Assembly: GCA_039028615.1 (NCBI GenBank)
Contig: JBCCHT010000034.1
Location: 1-64,000 of the forward strand
From: Myxococcota bacterium
GTDB taxonomy: Bacteria > Myxococcota_A > Polyangia > Nannocystales > Nannocystaceae
Direction of reading: 5' to 3'
Length of the DNA: 64,000 nt
Made by a program: the position numbers. Below are positions 1 through 21,000 of this stretch, piece by piece. How positions within the stretch are numbered: the stretch's first letter is position 1; each line of letters opens with the position of its first letter.

Positions 1-3000
1 CAAACGTGGTGTATCCACGTGCGCCTGTGCACTAGTTGAGTGGACATGCTGTGCTTTGCCAAACTCCCACACGCTAGCTACCAAAGGTGCGGCATAGGGC
101 GCAGCTTTCGCCGACCTGCACGTTGACGTAGAAGCCGGGCCAGGCGGGGTCGTAGATGTTCTTGGTCACCGCCACGCCGTTGACCCGCTCGTCGTCGAAG
201 TTCGGATGGACGAGCACCCCCATCGCCGACGCGAAGTGATCGATGCGATAGAACTCCCGCTCCTCGTAGGCCCGAAAATTCCACAGGCTCGCCCACACCT
301 GCTTGATTGACTTGACGATGTGGCCTTCGTCCGGCCGATGCGTATACGAGTCGTAGAGCCCCGCCCCGTTGAAGCCCTCGAGGTCTTCGTTGTTGGTGCT
401 CGAACGACACCGCGGGTTCGTGCCCGGCGGGAAGGCTTTGTGCATGGCATCGAGCGCGTCGGCGAGGTGACCGGGGACATCCGCCTTCTTGATCGCCTTG
501 CGCAGCTTCTTGAGCCGGTCTTCTCGTACGCTGGGATCGTCGGCGAAGCCCTCGGAGGCCAGCGTCTGTCGGGCCTGCTCGTACAGCCCCGTCTGTCGCA
601 TGAACTCGTCGTAGAACGAAAACGGCACGGCAAAGCCATCGGGCACCATCGTCGAGGGAAGCGCCTTGCGGAGCTCCGCGAGGTTGGCCGCCTTGGCCCC
701 GAAGGCGTTGAAGTCGTGGTGACCGATCTGGTCGAGCGGCACGATGGTCTTGCGCTCGAGGTCACGCTGCGGCGTCTGGGTTTGCGCGGGCCGAATCGAC
801 TCCAGGTGTTCGTGCACTTCTTCGGCACTCGCTGCGCGGAGTTCGATGTCGTCCGGGCGAACGGCGAAGTACACCTCTTTGCCGAGCAGCGGCACGACTC
901 GAGGGTCGGAGGCCGCCTCCCGGAGATACGCATTGGGCGTATCGTTCTGCTTGGCCTTGAGGTTGATGTGTGACAGCGGGGTTTGGGGTTCTTCGGTCAA
1001 CACCCCCGCCACGTGGGACAGGTCGTTGGGAATCGATCGGAAGATGACCACGTCCCGCGCGGTCGGCGGCCGGCGATCGCTCGCATCGACGACCCGCAGG
1101 ACGCCGTAGCCCTCGCCCAGGTTCAGGGGGCTGTAGCGCACGGAAGCAAAGAGGGTCTGCGTCTCGACGACCCGCACCCCGGCTGCGGGCAGCACATCGG
1201 GGTCTTGGCTCACGATGTCCTGCTGCGACTGCCCGGCGGGGTGATAGGCCAGCGTGCCCTCGACCATCGGCATGCCACGCAGCACCAGATTCCACGCGAG
1301 CACCACGTGCTCGAGCGAGACCGGATCGGTGGGCCAGAACTCGAGGGTGTACAGCCCTCGTTCACCCCCCTCGCCCTCGAACGAATCGTGAGCGAGCAAT
1401 GACCCGGCCAAGTATCGACGCGAGTCGGTGAAATAGGTCTGACTATTGAACTCACCCAATTCCATCGAGACGCCCAGTGCCCCGAAGGCAAAGTCATAGT
1501 GATACGCGTATCGATTGGTATCCATGAACCACAGTTTCGGTTCGGTGCCGATCCCCTCGATGAGTATCTTGACTTCGCGAACGCCCAGCGCTCCCGGCAC
1601 GTCGTCGCGACGAGCCAGAGACTCGAAGGTCTCGCGGTCAGCGATGGTGTCTCGACCTCCTTCGGGGTCTTCTGGCGGTCTCGTCCCCGGTGAATTCGAC
1701 CCACTGCCCCCACCCGCGTTCTGCTGAACGGGCACCGGAGGCATGGGGGCGAAGGGCAACCGGGGGTGAGGACACATCGCAACCCACTCTACACGACACG
1801 TCCCTCGCAGCTCGGCCACCGTGCCAGATCGAAACTCCTGCCGATCTCTCCACTCATCATCCTGCCACCGAGGGATGGATGGCACCGGGGCGAAGAGCGC
1901 GACCGAAGTCGTGCGAATTCAAGCCGGCGGTGGAAAGCAGTTTAGGCCGCCCTCGCGGGCTGGATCCAAACCTGTCTCACGTAGGTGAGACACTGACGGA
2001 GCTAGAGTTCCGCTCATCTCCTCGCGATAGACACGACGGCTCGCACACGGGATTGGCCCCGGGCGCGACACCGCCAGTCCCCGGCGTTTTAAGCGGCGGG
2101 TCTTTGCACCCATGGGTGCACCCACTCCTCACTCGAGGTGTCCAGCCGCGACCGGTTTGGATTCGGTCGCATTGGTCAGAGCGGATCACGAAACATGACA
2201 AGGATCATTCCCGGAGTTCAAATCACCGTCGTCAAGGAGGTGGTACCGCCTCAGCTCGCGCCGTCGGGCATCTTCGGTCTCGTCGGATTGGTGGCCCCCG
2301 CACGCGAGGGCACGATCCGACAACCCGTGGAGCGCGTGGGTAGCTGGGCCCGCTTCCGCGAGCTGTACGGCCGCGGCACGGCCCGGGTGATGCCCGAAGC
2401 GCAGCAGGCCTTCCAAAACGGCATCTTCGAGCTGGTGGTCGTCGACCTCGAGTCGGCCGTCGCCGACGCGGCCTCGGTCACGCTCGACTCCGGGGGCGCC
2501 TATCTGTCCTTCAGCGCCCGTGCAGCGGGTACTCGCCCCAACGGCCTCGAGCTGTCCCTCGCCAACTTGGGCAACGGGTACGAGCTGCGGCTTCGCGAAG
2601 GGGGAGACGACATCGAGGTCTACCGCAACCTCTCGGTGCTCCCCGGCGACTCGAGCTACATCGGCCGCGTCCTCGACGGCAGCGACTCCGAGGTCCAGCT
2701 CGATGCGCCCACCGTCGCGTATACCGACTTCTCCGGGGCCGGAGCCACCGTCGCGGCCGGCGGGACCCAGCAGCTGGCCACGGTCGCGACCGCAGCCGTA
2801 CTCACCGTCAGCGTCGCCTCGGGCGCGGCCTCGTCCCTGGTGATCACCGAAGTCGCGATCGGTGGGGACACCAACATTCGCTTCACCTACGACGGCAACA
2901 CGCTCTTCGATCTCGACACCACGAGCGATACGCCCTTCGATGGCTTCCGCACCGCCATCGAGGCGATCGACGAGCTGTCGGTCTCGACTACGCGCCCGGA

Positions 3001-18000: not shown

Positions 18001-21000
18001 CCTCGGGATTGGTACGGAGACCATGCCACCGCCAGCGACCCAGGTGGTCTACGGCTCGACGGAAGCGACGGAACTGCAGCAGCTGGGGCTCCGCACCACG
18101 GTGACCGTCCGCCGCTCCAGCCTGTTCCTCCCCGGCGACGCGACATCCTCGAACCGCTCGCTTCGGCTCTGGGGGTTGGCTCTGCCCTACGTGGCCCCCG
18201 ACGGAGTAACGACCGATGCTTCCGTCCACACGATCGCGGCGGGGCGACTGGACTGTCGCCACGTGCTGCTGAGAAACCACGGTTCGGCCGAGTTCGTGAC
18301 CCCGGAAGAGGCGACGCCCTGGAACGACGCGCCCGACACACCGCTCGAGCCGACCGATCCGATCGATCCGATCGATCCGATCGACCCCATTGATCCCATC
18401 GACCCCATCGATCCCATCGAGCCGATCGATCCCATCGAACCGATCGACCCCATCGAACCAATCGATCCGGTCGGGCCTGGCCCCGTCGGTCCTGCCCCCG
18501 ACGCTTGATCGGCATTGCTCATGGACGTATCGCTCGGCGACGACACCGACCTTCTGCTCTCCGGCAGCGCGACCGTGCAGCTCGGAGAGCAGGCGGTCCC
18601 GCTCGTCCTGCAACTCGAAGACGACGAAGTCATCGACGGGCTCACGCTTCGCATCGTGCGGGCCGCAGACGCCTCGATGGCTCCCGTCGGCTTGGACGAC
18701 GCCGCGCTCGACTCGGACGGTTCGTCCCTGCTGTCTGCCCTCACCTGGATCGCCGCGAATTTCGGCGACACGTACGCTCTATCGCGCTTCCAGCTCGACT
18801 TCACCGCCAAGCCCAACCCGCTGGTCGTCCGGCTGGGCGTCGCCCGAGGTGACAGTTCTTGGTATCCACCGCCCGGCCCGCAGCGATTCGACATGGGCGG
18901 CGCGCTTCAGCTGAACGCGGCCTTTCCCAACACGATCGCCGATCGCTTGATGCTGGAATTCTTCGTCGAGAGCACGGGGGGAGAGCTCATCCCGGCCGCG
19001 GTGAGCCTCGCCGCCACGCCGCTGGCGATGACCTACGGCCTGCACGCCCGTGACATCAGCGTCGGCCTGCAGGGCCGCCGTACCTTCCTGCGAAGCAGTG
19101 GGGAAGCAAGCACCGACGGCGTCACCGTCGACGGGCTGCTGGAACACGTCGGCACGGAGCTCGATCGCAACCTCCGAGGACAGACGATCACCATCGAGCT
19201 GACGGCCGAAGTCCGCGGATCGGCAGTGCTCGAGTGGGAGCTGAGCAGCCACCGAGTCGAAGAACAGTTCCAGCCCGACCTCGACACGGTCGCCCTCGAG
19301 ATCGAGTGGGATGGCATCGCGACCCAGCTGCTCCCTCTGCCCGCCGACGGCAGCAGCGAGGTCCTCGGCCTCAGCCTCGGCTCGCTCACCGCGCCCAAGA
19401 CCCAGCGCGTCGTGCTGGCTCCCCAGTCCACGATGCCCGGACCCGCCCGCTCGCAACTCGTTCGGCCGCTCTACGACGCCGCCCAAGCATTGAGCGTCTC
19501 GGACTCGCGCCCCTTGGCGGGCATCGACATCTACGCCCGCCTCTTCGGTCAGGCCACGAGCGTTCGCCTCGGCATCCATCCCGACGACGAAGGGCAACCC
19601 CGTGCCGCCCCGCTCTTCGAGGTCACACGAACCTTCGACGCCGAACACTCCACCGAGCCCGCATGGATCTCGTTCGAGCTCGAGACACCACAGCCGCTAC
19701 CCACGTCGCTCTATTGGCTGGTGCTGCGATCCGACGAAGGCGACATCGCATGGTTCGTCGACACGCCCTCCCCGGAGAACGTGGACGGCCTGACGTATCG
19801 CCGTGATGGCGGGCTGTGGCTTCCGCGGGGAAGCAACACCGAATCCCCGTGGGGTCAGACTCGTTTGCGAGTGGTGGAGACGACCGAGCCCACCGCCCCC
19901 TCGTTCGAACTCGCGGGCTACGAGACCTTACCCAGCTCGTCCGACGACCCGCCCACCTTCGTCGCGGTCATCGAGCCGGCCGACGACGGCTCCATCGCGT
20001 GGTTCCCCGACGACGCTCAGGTCCCTCCGGTTCTCGCCCGCCTCGATCTTCGGATCGCATCTTCGGTGGCGACGACCCTCTCGCTCTCGGAGCTCGAGCT
20101 TCAGTACCGCAGCACGACCTCAGGCTGATCCATGCTCCGACCTCTCGAAGACCTCATCATCCCTCCCATCGACGCCGTGATGCCCGTGTCGGTGTCGGTC
20201 CTGCGTGGTCCGTACGTCGTCGCGCCTCCATGGCCGAATAGTCAGCGCATCATCTCGGTCTACGGTCGAGCGATACGAACCATCGAGCCGACACCTTCGC
20301 GAGACGACGACGGTCCGTCCTTCATCATCAACGAAGAGACCTGGGACACGGATGGAATCGTCGACACCTTCGTCCTGCCTCCGGAGGCGACCGGCTCGAT
20401 CTTCGAGGTCGAGAGCCCGCCCGGATTTCCCATGCGACGAGGGGACGACTATCTCGTCGACGGCGACACGATTCGGTTCTACCGAGCCCCGGACGTCGGA
20501 GCACCGGGGGTGCTCGCCCGGCTGCAAGCCGAGGCCACCCATGGCTACACGCGACGACGCCCCTGCATCATGGAGCTGGATATCGACATCTACGGCCGCT
20601 TCTACGAGGAGGTCGATCTCATGCTCGGAGCATCGACTCAGATCTCGTTGGCCGCGATGGCTCGTGCGCCTCGCTTCACTTTTCCCCCCGCGACCGACAC
20701 CACCGTGCTCATGCGGATCATCGAGGCACGCGCGAGCGTGGCATCCCTCGAGCGCGCGGCGATCACCATCGACGCGGCGCCGGTCTTCCATGCGGCGATC
20801 CGTCTAGAGATCGATGGCCAGCTCGATCTGGTCGTCGCCAACGGTCGCCCCGTCGACACCTCGCTCATCGAGTCGATCGAAGGCACGGTCGAGGTCGTGC
20901 CCGCCGACGGCGAAGCCCCGGTCCCGCAGACCATCACGATCGAGCCCGACGAGCCCGTCGACCCCTGAGCGACGCACTCGACGCTCCCGCCGATGTCGCG

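What a model noticed while it worked through the whole genome (the two positions that open the first line are those of the whole stretch)
2195..20968. A 19-gene capsid-less contractile-tail operon of a type outside eCIS, T6SS and pyocins, syntenic across Polyangia
A 19-gene operon encodes sheath, tube, hub, spike and baseplate proteins plus a dozen proteins of no known family, with no recognisable capsid, terminase, lysis, AAA ATPase, Pvc16 or T6SS membrane genes. The same gene set recurs among host genes in distant genomes, so it looks like a domesticated injection machine of its own kind, separate from the two eCIS loci of this genome.
Evidence so far: PHROGs matches only tail, baseplate and unknown families; none of 14 genes passes a Pfam cut-off. 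g06900 folds as a tail tube/Hcp. Same order in G059, G022, G415, G051 and a metagenome contig, rearranged in G565, with no ATPase match near them. Marker g06909: 152 homologues including Pyxidicoccus, Archangium and Azohydromonas, 6 of 301 class genomes, none in phage genomes or viral contigs.
(Added by a program. Inside this text positions count along the whole contig: contig position 1 is position 1 of the stretch shown here. "Call 12" and the like, gene names such as g00115 and contig names such as C1 are that model's own, and its searches are not shown. The text may have been shortened before it was handed on; [...] marks where a part breaks off. The agent that wrote the report below was given it as the finding of a first reader that could run no searches.)

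Follow-up and report, generated by a model that had tools for sequence, protein, structure and literature searches.

The report
Unlisted lineage of headless phage-tail syringes
This bacterium carries a complete, headless phage-tail operon of a lineage that also occurs, intact and under selection, in several bacterial phyla and in Bathyarchaeia archaea, and that matches none of the catalogued injection-machine families we could test, so it is probably an overlooked class of microbial syringe whose target and cargo remain unknown.

Summary
The 19 co-oriented genes at 2195-20968 are real. No head, lysis, Afp15-type ATPase or T6SS membrane gene lies in it or beside it in 33 relatives scanned. The cassette is not Polyangia-specific. 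Its sheath has 204 relatives among GTDB genomes (Myxococcota, Beta-, Gamma- and Alphaproteobacteria, Planctomycetota, Desulfobacterales, archaea), a simpler version sits in Bathyarchaeia, synteny is kept, and dN/dS is below 1. Its sheaths form one clade apart from Pvc16-linked eCIS, P2, Mu and T4; the tube fits no Pfam family; two carrier genomes score eCIS-negative in the eCIStem table. Lineage-specific parts are a three-repeat protein where PAAR would be and two to four paralogous amphipathic helical domains, one fused to a glycan-binding jelly roll. Best reading: an independently domesticated, single-shot injection particle. Particles, targets and cargo are unshown; toxin genes are firm in only 2 of 27 related loci.

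The parts
2195..3844 (+). g01 contractile sheath, 549 aa
   Evidence: PF17482 over cut-off; phrog_279 E 3e-20; own clade in tree
3878..4270 (+). g02 tail tube, 130 aa, family absent from Pfam
   Evidence: Follows the sheath in 82 of 83 loci; distant members hit PHROG tail proteins 290 and 365; fold not re-predicted here
4292..5119 (+). g03 probable tail assembly chaperone, 275 aa
   Evidence: Position only; the archaeal gene in this slot hits phrog_344 tail assembly chaperone but its profile does not align to g03
5116..6540 (+). g04 low-complexity probable tape measure, 474 aa
   Evidence: Slot between chaperone and hub spans 342-631 codons in 27 loci; conserved C-terminal motif shared with the archaeal gene in this slot, E 6e-7; role inferred
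6547..7581 (+). g05 baseplate hub (gp27/Mu gp44-like)
   Evidence: phrog_177 E 3e-6; family profile hits Mu gp44 E 6e-10
7585..8472 (+). g06 tube initiator domain plus helical C-terminal domain
   Evidence: PF07157 weak here, over cut-off in the L007 homologue; fused to g07 in L007, L010, L034, L042
8469..8981 (+). g07 amphipathic helical domain, paralogue 1
   Evidence: HHalign g07-g08 97.6%, g07-g09N 92.6%
8981..9514 (+). g08 amphipathic helical domain, paralogue 2
   Evidence: HHalign g08-g09N 98.2%
9538..11478 (+). g09 helical paralogue 3, small middle domain, C-terminal carbohydrate-binding-type jelly roll
   Evidence: Model pLDDT 84; residues 353-643 match CBM, lectin and tailspike sandwiches, Z 9.6-13.1; the middle three-helix part resembles PG_binding_1 by eye only
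11501..12136 (+). g10 central spike (gpV/gp45-like) with conserved C-terminal His-Lys-Cys
   Evidence: PF04717 over cut-off; alignment A8
12143..12586 (+). g11 two repeats of the putative spike-tip domain
   Evidence: g11 plus g12 give three repeats, fused in one 194-218 aa gene in 16 aligned relatives; PAAR holds this slot in sister locus L084
12586..12795 (+). g12 third repeat, 69 aa
12792..13211 (+). g13 gp25-like sheath initiator
   Evidence: phrog_975 E 1e-19; PF04965 and PF10934 below cut-off
13201..14772 (+). g14 baseplate J wedge protein
   Evidence: PF04865 E 1.5e-20; family profile hits HRTV-25 baseplate J E 2e-41
14772..16511 (+). g15 second wedge protein (gpI-like N-terminus) with added domains
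   Evidence: Profile hits HRTV-25 gpI-like protein E 1e-11; archaeal homologue hits baseplate PHROGs
16539..17075 (+). g16 fibre-associated baseplate protein
   Evidence: phrog_5417; homologue hits tail-fibre phrog_4176
17075..18508 (+). g17 tail fibre: conserved N-terminal anchor, variable C-terminus
   Evidence: phrog_892 weak; anchor in 27 of 28 loci; C-termini unrelated between loci
18521..20128 (+). g18 conserved beta-rich protein of unknown role, beside the cap gene
   Evidence: 24 of 28 loci; no Pfam, PHROG or PDB-sequence match; not folded
20132..20968 (+). g19 tail terminator / cap with an inserted beta domain (residues 63-135)
   Evidence: Model pLDDT 90; Foldseek phage 812 neck E 3e-8; lambda gpU Z 12.2, Mu terminator 10.9, pyocin collar 9.6, eCIS caps 7.2-8.9

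Best explanation
A host-domesticated, headless contractile injection particle of its own lineage. Inferred assembly: hub (g05) and spike (g10, tipped by the three-repeat g11/g12 in place of PAAR) are ringed by wedges (g13-g15) carrying a swappable fibre (g16, g17); the tube (g02) grows from the initiator (g06) along the unstructured ruler (g04, helped by g03), is sheathed (g01) and closed by its own terminator (g19). With no ATPase and no membrane complex it is single-shot, is released when the producer lyses by unlinked means, binds a target through fibre and glycan-binding domains, and contracts. The helical paralogues (g07, g08, g09N) most likely ride at the tube-hub junction and are delivered into, or act on, the target membrane; some hosts add toxins. 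Shown: gene content, folds of g19 and g09, range, synteny, selection, separation from eCIS families. Inferred: assembly, release, target, role of the helical and tip proteins. That it is a selected headless CIS outside the eCIS families I put at about 0.85; this full mechanism at 0.5.
For: Complete tail gene set with cap. Nine core genes in 28 of 28 loci long enough to hold both ends, terminator and fibre anchor in 27 of 28 (profiles were built from these loci). No capsid, portal, terminase, holin, DUF4255, T4 gp19 or TssL/M among 211 flanking and unassigned proteins. dN/dS 0-0.47 for conserved genes in six genome pairs. Sheath profile scores members 392-782 bits, best outsider 41 bits; one clade, SH-aLRT 96. 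Fibre C-termini vary freely, eight tandem fibre genes in L071. Toxin domains over cut-off in L042 (PF03497, between spike and tip genes) and L071 (PF14424 with an SMI1 partner). PAAR or DUF4280 genes lie beside archaeal loci.
Against: No particle, target or killing has been seen. No toxin, immunity or lysis gene is recognisable in the window, and the helical domain marks no orphan gene in this genome. Firm toxin hits in only 2 of 27 related complete loci. The archaeal version lacks the helical and tip genes, so they are not needed for a tail. Two archaeal loci (L073, G540) hold only sheath and tube. Helical domains next to a tube initiator may be purely structural, as Mu gp43 is long.
Confidence: 0.5

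Rival explanations
1. Same machine, but retained in the producer: a cytoplasmic or membrane-docked CIS firing on contact or on its own membrane, as in Halogeometricum or Streptomyces.
For: No lysis genes at any locus but one Rz1-like hit. Halogeometricum docks an eCIS-type baseplate on its membrane without a T6SS membrane complex (PMC11566945). Amphipathic helical domains could bind the producer's membrane. Many carriers form flocs, filaments or fruiting bodies (own knowledge).
Against: A ruler-like gene, a cap and highly variable fibres point to a fixed-length particle that recognises outside targets. No ATPase for recycling. Only g17 reaches a 19-residue hydropathy above 1.9 in the window.
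Confidence: 0.22
2. An R-tailocin-like bacteriocin from an unsampled myovirus tail: kills by puncture alone, with lysis and induction genes elsewhere.
For: No ATPase, phage-like gene order, cap closer to phage terminators than to eCIS caps, few toxin genes, nearest outsiders are phage tails. Phage-tail-like structures inducible by mitomycin were reported in Archangium violaceum (review passage), a species with this tube, though it may have other sources.
Against: Parts are not P2-like (P2 sheath -1.9 bits). No linked lysis cassette or regulator. One conserved lineage across phyla and domains, with helical, CBM and toxin additions, is unlike genus-restricted tailocins (own knowledge).
Confidence: 0.17
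3. A deeply diverged eCIS subtype missed by existing profiles.
For: Shares sheath superfamily, split hub and spike, gp25, J and a terminator-fold cap; the profile's best PDB sequence hits are eCIS sheaths (9EZM E 8e-7); the low-complexity ruler slot recalls lineage II clusters (recalled).
Against: Tube, cap and initiator profiles do not hit this genome's eCIS proteins; no Afp15, one tube only, no LysM found; clade lies outside eight Pvc16-linked sheath rows.
Confidence: 0.07
4. A prophage remnant, or the tail module of a phage or gene-transfer agent whose head genes lie elsewhere.
For: Three IMG/VR contigs carry archaeal-type pieces; terminase genes exist elsewhere in 3 of 5 carriers tested; partial loci exist (L073, G540).
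Against: Those contigs show tail genes only as far as read; no tube match in 50,697 phage records; terminases are on other contigs and absent in 2 of 5; intact frames and dN/dS below 1.
Confidence: 0.04

Closest known systems
eCIS (Afp, PVC, MAC, AlgoCIS, Streptomyces CIS; dbeCIS lineages I and II)
   Same: Headless chromosomal tail operon with sheath, tube, hub, spike, gp25, baseplate J, fibre and a terminator-fold cap; toxins sometimes at the 3' end; several taxa.
   Different: No T4 gp19-type tube, no DUF4255 cap family, no Afp15 ATPase, one tube gene, no LysM found, no PAAR in the main bacterial type; separate sheath clade; coexists with true eCIS loci in the same genomes.
Halogeometricum borinquense CIS (eCIS IIa, 'archaeal T6SS', PDB 9EZM)
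   Same: Best PDB sequence match of the sheath profile; headless; archaeal; no T6SS membrane complex.
   Different: Match is only E 8e-7; that cluster has cis1-16 with ATPase and lacks a tape measure; ours has a ruler-like gene and no ATPase.
R-type tailocins (R-pyocin, diffocin)
   Same: ATPase-free headless tail with chaperone, ruler, collar and fibre.
   Different: Not P2-like in sequence; no linked holin, endolysin or regulator; added helical, CBM and tip genes; spans phyla and domains.
Myovirus tails of Hafunaviridae (HRTV-25) and Mu-like gene order
   Same: Nearest outsider among those tested for sheath (E 7e-12), J (2e-41) and gpI-like wedge (1e-11); same order of sheath, tube, chaperone, ruler, initiator, hub, spike, wedge.
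   Different: Under 32% identity, partial; no head or packaging genes; terminator gene moved to the 3' end; hub and initiator swapped in the bacterial type.
T6SS subtypes i-iv
   Same: Contractile sheath, tube and spike.
   Different: One-gene sheath, baseplate J, fibres, ruler-like gene; no TssJLM, TssA or ClpV match at the locus.

Membership tests
eCIS (dbeCIS core) | Afp1/5 tube of the T4 gp19 family (PF06841) | tested here: not met
   No Pfam hit for g02; PF06841 rings on C9, C15, C73 but not C34
eCIS (dbeCIS core) | Afp16/Pvc16 cap family (PF14065) | tested here: not met
   PF14065 only on C9 and C15, 0 of 5 single-sheath or near-single carriers; g19 has the terminator fold but no family match
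eCIS (dbeCIS core) | Afp15 AAA+ ATPase in the cluster | tested here: not met
   None among 19 genes or as a conserved neighbour; AAA-type hits in flanks are sigma-54 activators, SRP, PilT, RecA, nSTAND1
eCIS (dbeCIS core) | Afp7 tube initiator with LysM | tested here: inconclusive
   An initiator of the PF07157 type is present; no LysM hit; g06 was not folded
eCIS (dbeCIS core) | Sheath, Afp8 hub/spike, Afp9 gp25, Afp11 baseplate J | tested here: met
   these are shared with myovirus tails and do not discriminate
eCIS (catalogues) | Listed in eCIStem or dbeCIS | tested here: not met
   Carriers Thiolinea disciformis DSM 14473 and Chitiniphilus shinanonensis DSM 23277 score 0; listed M. stipitatus and Plesiocystis operons are other loci. 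dbeCIS gives M. stipitatus two loci without coordinates that I could see
T6SS i-iii | TssJLM membrane complex, TssB/C, ClpV linked to the locus | tested here: not met
   None in operon or flanks; TssL lies 117 kb away in this genome and was not found in 3 of 5 carriers, which are incomplete
R-type tailocin | Linked holin/endolysin and SOS-type regulator | tested here: not met
   One Rz1-like hit in 211 proteins, one peptidase plus PG-binding pair at L049
R-type tailocin | Kills related strains by puncture after induced lysis | not testable with these tools
   Needs bench work
Prophage / GTA | Capsid, portal and terminase with the tail | tested here: not met
Contractile injection system (broad) | Assembled sheath-tube-baseplate particles that contract | not testable with these tools
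   Gene set complete and under purifying selection; no imaging

The most novel reading that the evidence does not exclude
A further, independently domesticated class of contractile injection system, derived from a myovirus tail unrelated to the eCIS, T6SS and P2-pyocin ancestors, shared by bacteria and Bathyarchaeia, ATPase-free, with a three-repeat replacement for PAAR and a built-in set of helical, glycan-aimed proteins that act as its membrane-active payload.
Probability: 0.4. Interest if true: 0.87.

Novelty: new variant of a known kind. Interest (0 to 1): 0.74.

Why it matters
Known headless contractile machines fall into eCIS, T6SS and tailocins. A conserved lineage outside their profiles would be another independent taming of a phage tail, invisible to current catalogues, present in predatory myxobacteria, in activated-sludge Zoogloea and Accumulibacter, and in about 5% of sampled Bathyarchaeia, for which our searches found no described injection system. 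Cultured type strains carry it, so it is directly testable, and it offers a candidate source for old reports of tail-like particles in myxobacteria.

Tried and rejected
Complex prediction of three spikes with the three-repeat protein gave no answer (score 0.10); the pairing was cross-species (window spike, Zoogloea tip) and says nothing either way. ESM Atlas gave no hit for g09 and only unnamed clusters, two mostly Uroviricota at 0.91, for the tip protein. PDB sequence searches with tube, g19, g18 and g15 profiles found nothing significant. The helical and middle parts of the g09 model were barely tested by the fold search. Archaeal chaperone profiles did not align to g03. RNA: contigs of four RNA libraries cover the Accumulibacter cassette, but one covers the upstream flank as well and the other three are different strains, so transcription is not shown. 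No sigma-70 promoter and only chance-level terminators. The first tree held one wrong-frame eCIS row and was redone; it is a quick tree with long branches, so the sister position of HRTV-25 is unsure. Spike patterns found no viral contig; the sheath has no plasmid match. Earlier-findings look-ups returned nothing. TIR/STAND genes upstream in Rhodocyclales-type loci were rejected as a general part: they are missing elsewhere.
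Full report
Observation. Nineteen genes lie head to tail on the + strand from 2195 to 20968, with gaps of -11 to +33 bases, at host-like G+C, between a divergent PPDK-domain gene and an ABC-transporter block. PHROGs, Pfam and NCBIfam name sheath (g01), hub (g05), spike (g10), gp25-like (g13) and baseplate J (g14); three pass Pfam cut-offs; no head, packaging, lysis, AAA or T6SS membrane family appears. The cassette is single-copy in this genome, whose two canonical eCIS loci on C9 and C15 carry PF14065 and PF06841.

The missing parts are there. The last gene, g19, folds with pLDDT 90 as a tail terminator: Foldseek's best hit is the phage 812 neck (E 3e-8); the wide search ranks lambda gpU (Z 12.2, rmsd 2.8, 123 aligned), the Mu terminator (10.9) and the pyocin collar (9.6) above the eCIS caps (7.2-8.9). 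So the particle can close itself. g06 begins with a PF07157-type tube initiator. g15 is a gpI-like wedge. g17 has a conserved N-terminal anchor and unrelated C-termini, as fibres do. g03 and g04 hold the chaperone and tape-measure slots; the archaeal gene in the g03 slot hits a chaperone PHROG, though I could not align it to g03, so both roles rest on position.

Lineage-specific parts. g11 and g12 together make three repeats, fused in one gene in 16 aligned relatives. They follow the spike, whose C-terminal His-Lys-Cys is nearly invariant. A divergent sister locus has a spike without that motif and a true PAAR gene in this slot, and archaeal loci lack g11/g12 but have PAAR or DUF4280 genes nearby in three cases. 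I infer a pseudo-trimeric spike tip; binding is not shown. g07, g08 and the N-terminus of g09 are paralogous amphipathic helical domains (HHalign 92.6-98.2%); g07 fuses to the initiator in four loci. The g09 model (pLDDT 84) adds a C-terminal jelly roll like carbohydrate-binding modules and tailspike domains (Z up to 13.1), present in 11 of 28 loci. A helical bundle joined to a glycan-binding sandwich could be a membrane-active cargo or a structural appendage; nothing here decides it.

Range and synteny. Two sheath patterns found 216 stretches in 185,579 species genomes, 204 of them relatives; the 80 kept include Myxococcota, Zoogloea, Accumulibacter, Chitiniphilus, Azohydromonas, Methylococcaceae, Thiolinea, Acetobacteraceae, Brocadiaceae, Desulfobacterales, Entotheonella, Bathyarchaeia and a Methanomassiliicoccales genome. 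The tube follows the sheath in 82 of 83 loci. In the 28 loci that I chose as long enough to hold both ends, nine core genes are in 28, terminator, fibre anchor, g03 and a helical gene in 27, the tip in 26, g18 in 24 (the profiles came from these loci, so this measures co-occurrence, not sensitivity). It is patchy: 4 of 401 genomes of this phylum, 15 of 301 of the Bathyarchaeia-class sample. Three archaeal loci read to both ends (L135/136, L139, L141) show a complete headless operon with terminator among host genes; one (G540) and L073 hold only sheath and tube. The tube family has 548 clusters at 90% and 152 representatives at 50%; the 120 clusters listed carry no Pfam domain.

Not a prophage. 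Among 211 flanking and unassigned proteins from 33 loci and the window there is no capsid, portal, terminase, holin, DUF4255 or TssL/M match at E 1e-4 (best five families shown per protein); there is one Rz1-like hit, one integrase fragment below cut-off and some transposases. The tube has no match in 50,697 phage records; sheaths match phages only partially at under 30% identity. Three IMG/VR contigs carry archaeal-type tail genes and nothing else recognisable. dN/dS in six close genome pairs is 0-0.47 for genes from sheath to baseplate J, and 0.32 and 0.69 for the two g04-like pieces; distal genes were not tested.

Not an eCIS, T6SS or P2-type pyocin by the features tested. dbeCIS defines eight core subunits including Afp1/5, Afp15 and Afp16 (PMC6899500, passages); three are not met. 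The sheath profile scores 28 members at 392-782 bits and the best of 27 outsiders at 41 (haloarchaeal virus HRTV-25), eCIS rows at 27 or less, P2, Mu and T4 below zero. The members form one clade (SH-aLRT 96) outside eight Pvc16-linked rows; the tree is quick and long-branched. In the eCIStem supplements (PMC8213781, rows seen; files 13-15 not searched, some files cut) two carriers, Thiolinea disciformis DSM 14473 and Chitiniphilus shinanonensis DSM 23277, score eCIS-negative, and the operons listed for M. stipitatus and Plesiocystis are other loci.

Payload. Evidence is thin. Of 27 related complete loci, two have toxin domains over cut-off: an adenylate-cyclase-like gene (PF03497) between spike and tip genes in Thiolinea, and a deaminase toxin with an SMI1 partner in L071. 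L045 and L007 have toxin-like frames right after the terminator by recalled motifs only, with no family hit; L049 has a peptidase and a PG-binding protein there. The window has none, and no orphan gene in this genome bears the helical domain. RNA-library contigs cover the Accumulibacter cassette but do not show transcription.

Literature. Nine searches found no description of this cassette; the library lacks most subscription papers and bioRxiv supplements were closed. Read: PMC11566945 (parts 1-3 of 9; Halogeometricum CIS, clade IIa with ATPase); passages of PMC6899500, PMC8213781, PMC8651086, PMC10553843, PMC6070905 (tail-like structures in Archangium violaceum), 10.1101/2024.12.19.629468 (a Haliangiales CIS with ATPase and PAAR, so probably canonical), PMC13454183, PMC9230969 (archaeal sheath models of 436 and 452 aa that may belong here; not checked), PMC12019908 (an Accumulibacter tail sheath in a secretome; identity not checked) and PMC10547907; abstract and outline of 10.64898/2026.08.24.746745.

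Verdict. It works like a headless contractile injection particle and is a member of none of the named families by the features tested. I put a selected, headless CIS lineage outside eCIS at about 0.85, release plus protein delivery at 0.5, a cell-retained mode at 0.22, puncture-only tailocin at 0.17. It is a new variant, at the level of a class, of a known kind of machine; interest 0.74.

Noticed in passing
L167:6001-6486; proteins P0327, P0331, P0335, P0338, P0345, P0352, P0357, P0365, P0372, P0389: Distant tube homologues carry an N-terminal signal-peptide-like extension (by eye); in two metagenome contigs the gene stands alone among host genes with no other tail gene; one cluster member is from a Planctomycetota MAG. 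A possibly exported, repurposed tube protein.
   Followed up: partly
L084:7810-20000 and L085:1-17900 (G002:C1, 6.78-6.81 Mb): A second, divergent copy in Nannocystaceae ST9 with a 770-aa sheath, true PAAR, and 1128- and 2789-aa helical proteins (LysM, weak M23) after the terminator-like gene; the 1128-aa protein weakly matches the g07 helical profile.
   Followed up: partly
L018:5151-9868, L011:3-3937, L023:1-4522: TIR-domain and nSTAND1-WD40 genes lie upstream of the cassette in Zoogloea, a Burkholderiales MAG and Accumulibacter.
   Followed up: partly
L038:9296-9760 and other Myxococcaceae loci: A further helical gene upstream of the sheath, weakly related to g07, in loci that lack g08 and g09.
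   Followed up: partly
L071:3525-9972: Rearranged locus with eight tandem fibre genes, two g09 copies, a short spike and no tip gene.
   Followed up: partly
window 18330-18460 and 16200-16500: g17 ends in a DPI/EPI tripeptide repeat; g15 ends in repeated F-D-x-x-x-F-D motifs.
   Followed up: no
window 21072-21539: A membrane-anchored Cys-rich gene follows the operon on the same strand after 103 bases; no family over cut-off, not seen in relatives' flanks.
   Followed up: partly
G000:C19:147594-147902 and G000:C34:138269-138850: A further sheath gene on C19 with no Pvc16 match on that contig, and a T6SS TssL gene 117 kb downstream on this contig.
   Followed up: no
L136:9179-13945, L140:4273-5022: Archaeal loci have a subtilase with a peptidoglycan-binding domain, a PAAR gene and another PG-binding gene beside or inside the cassette, hinting at bacterial targets.
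   Followed up: no
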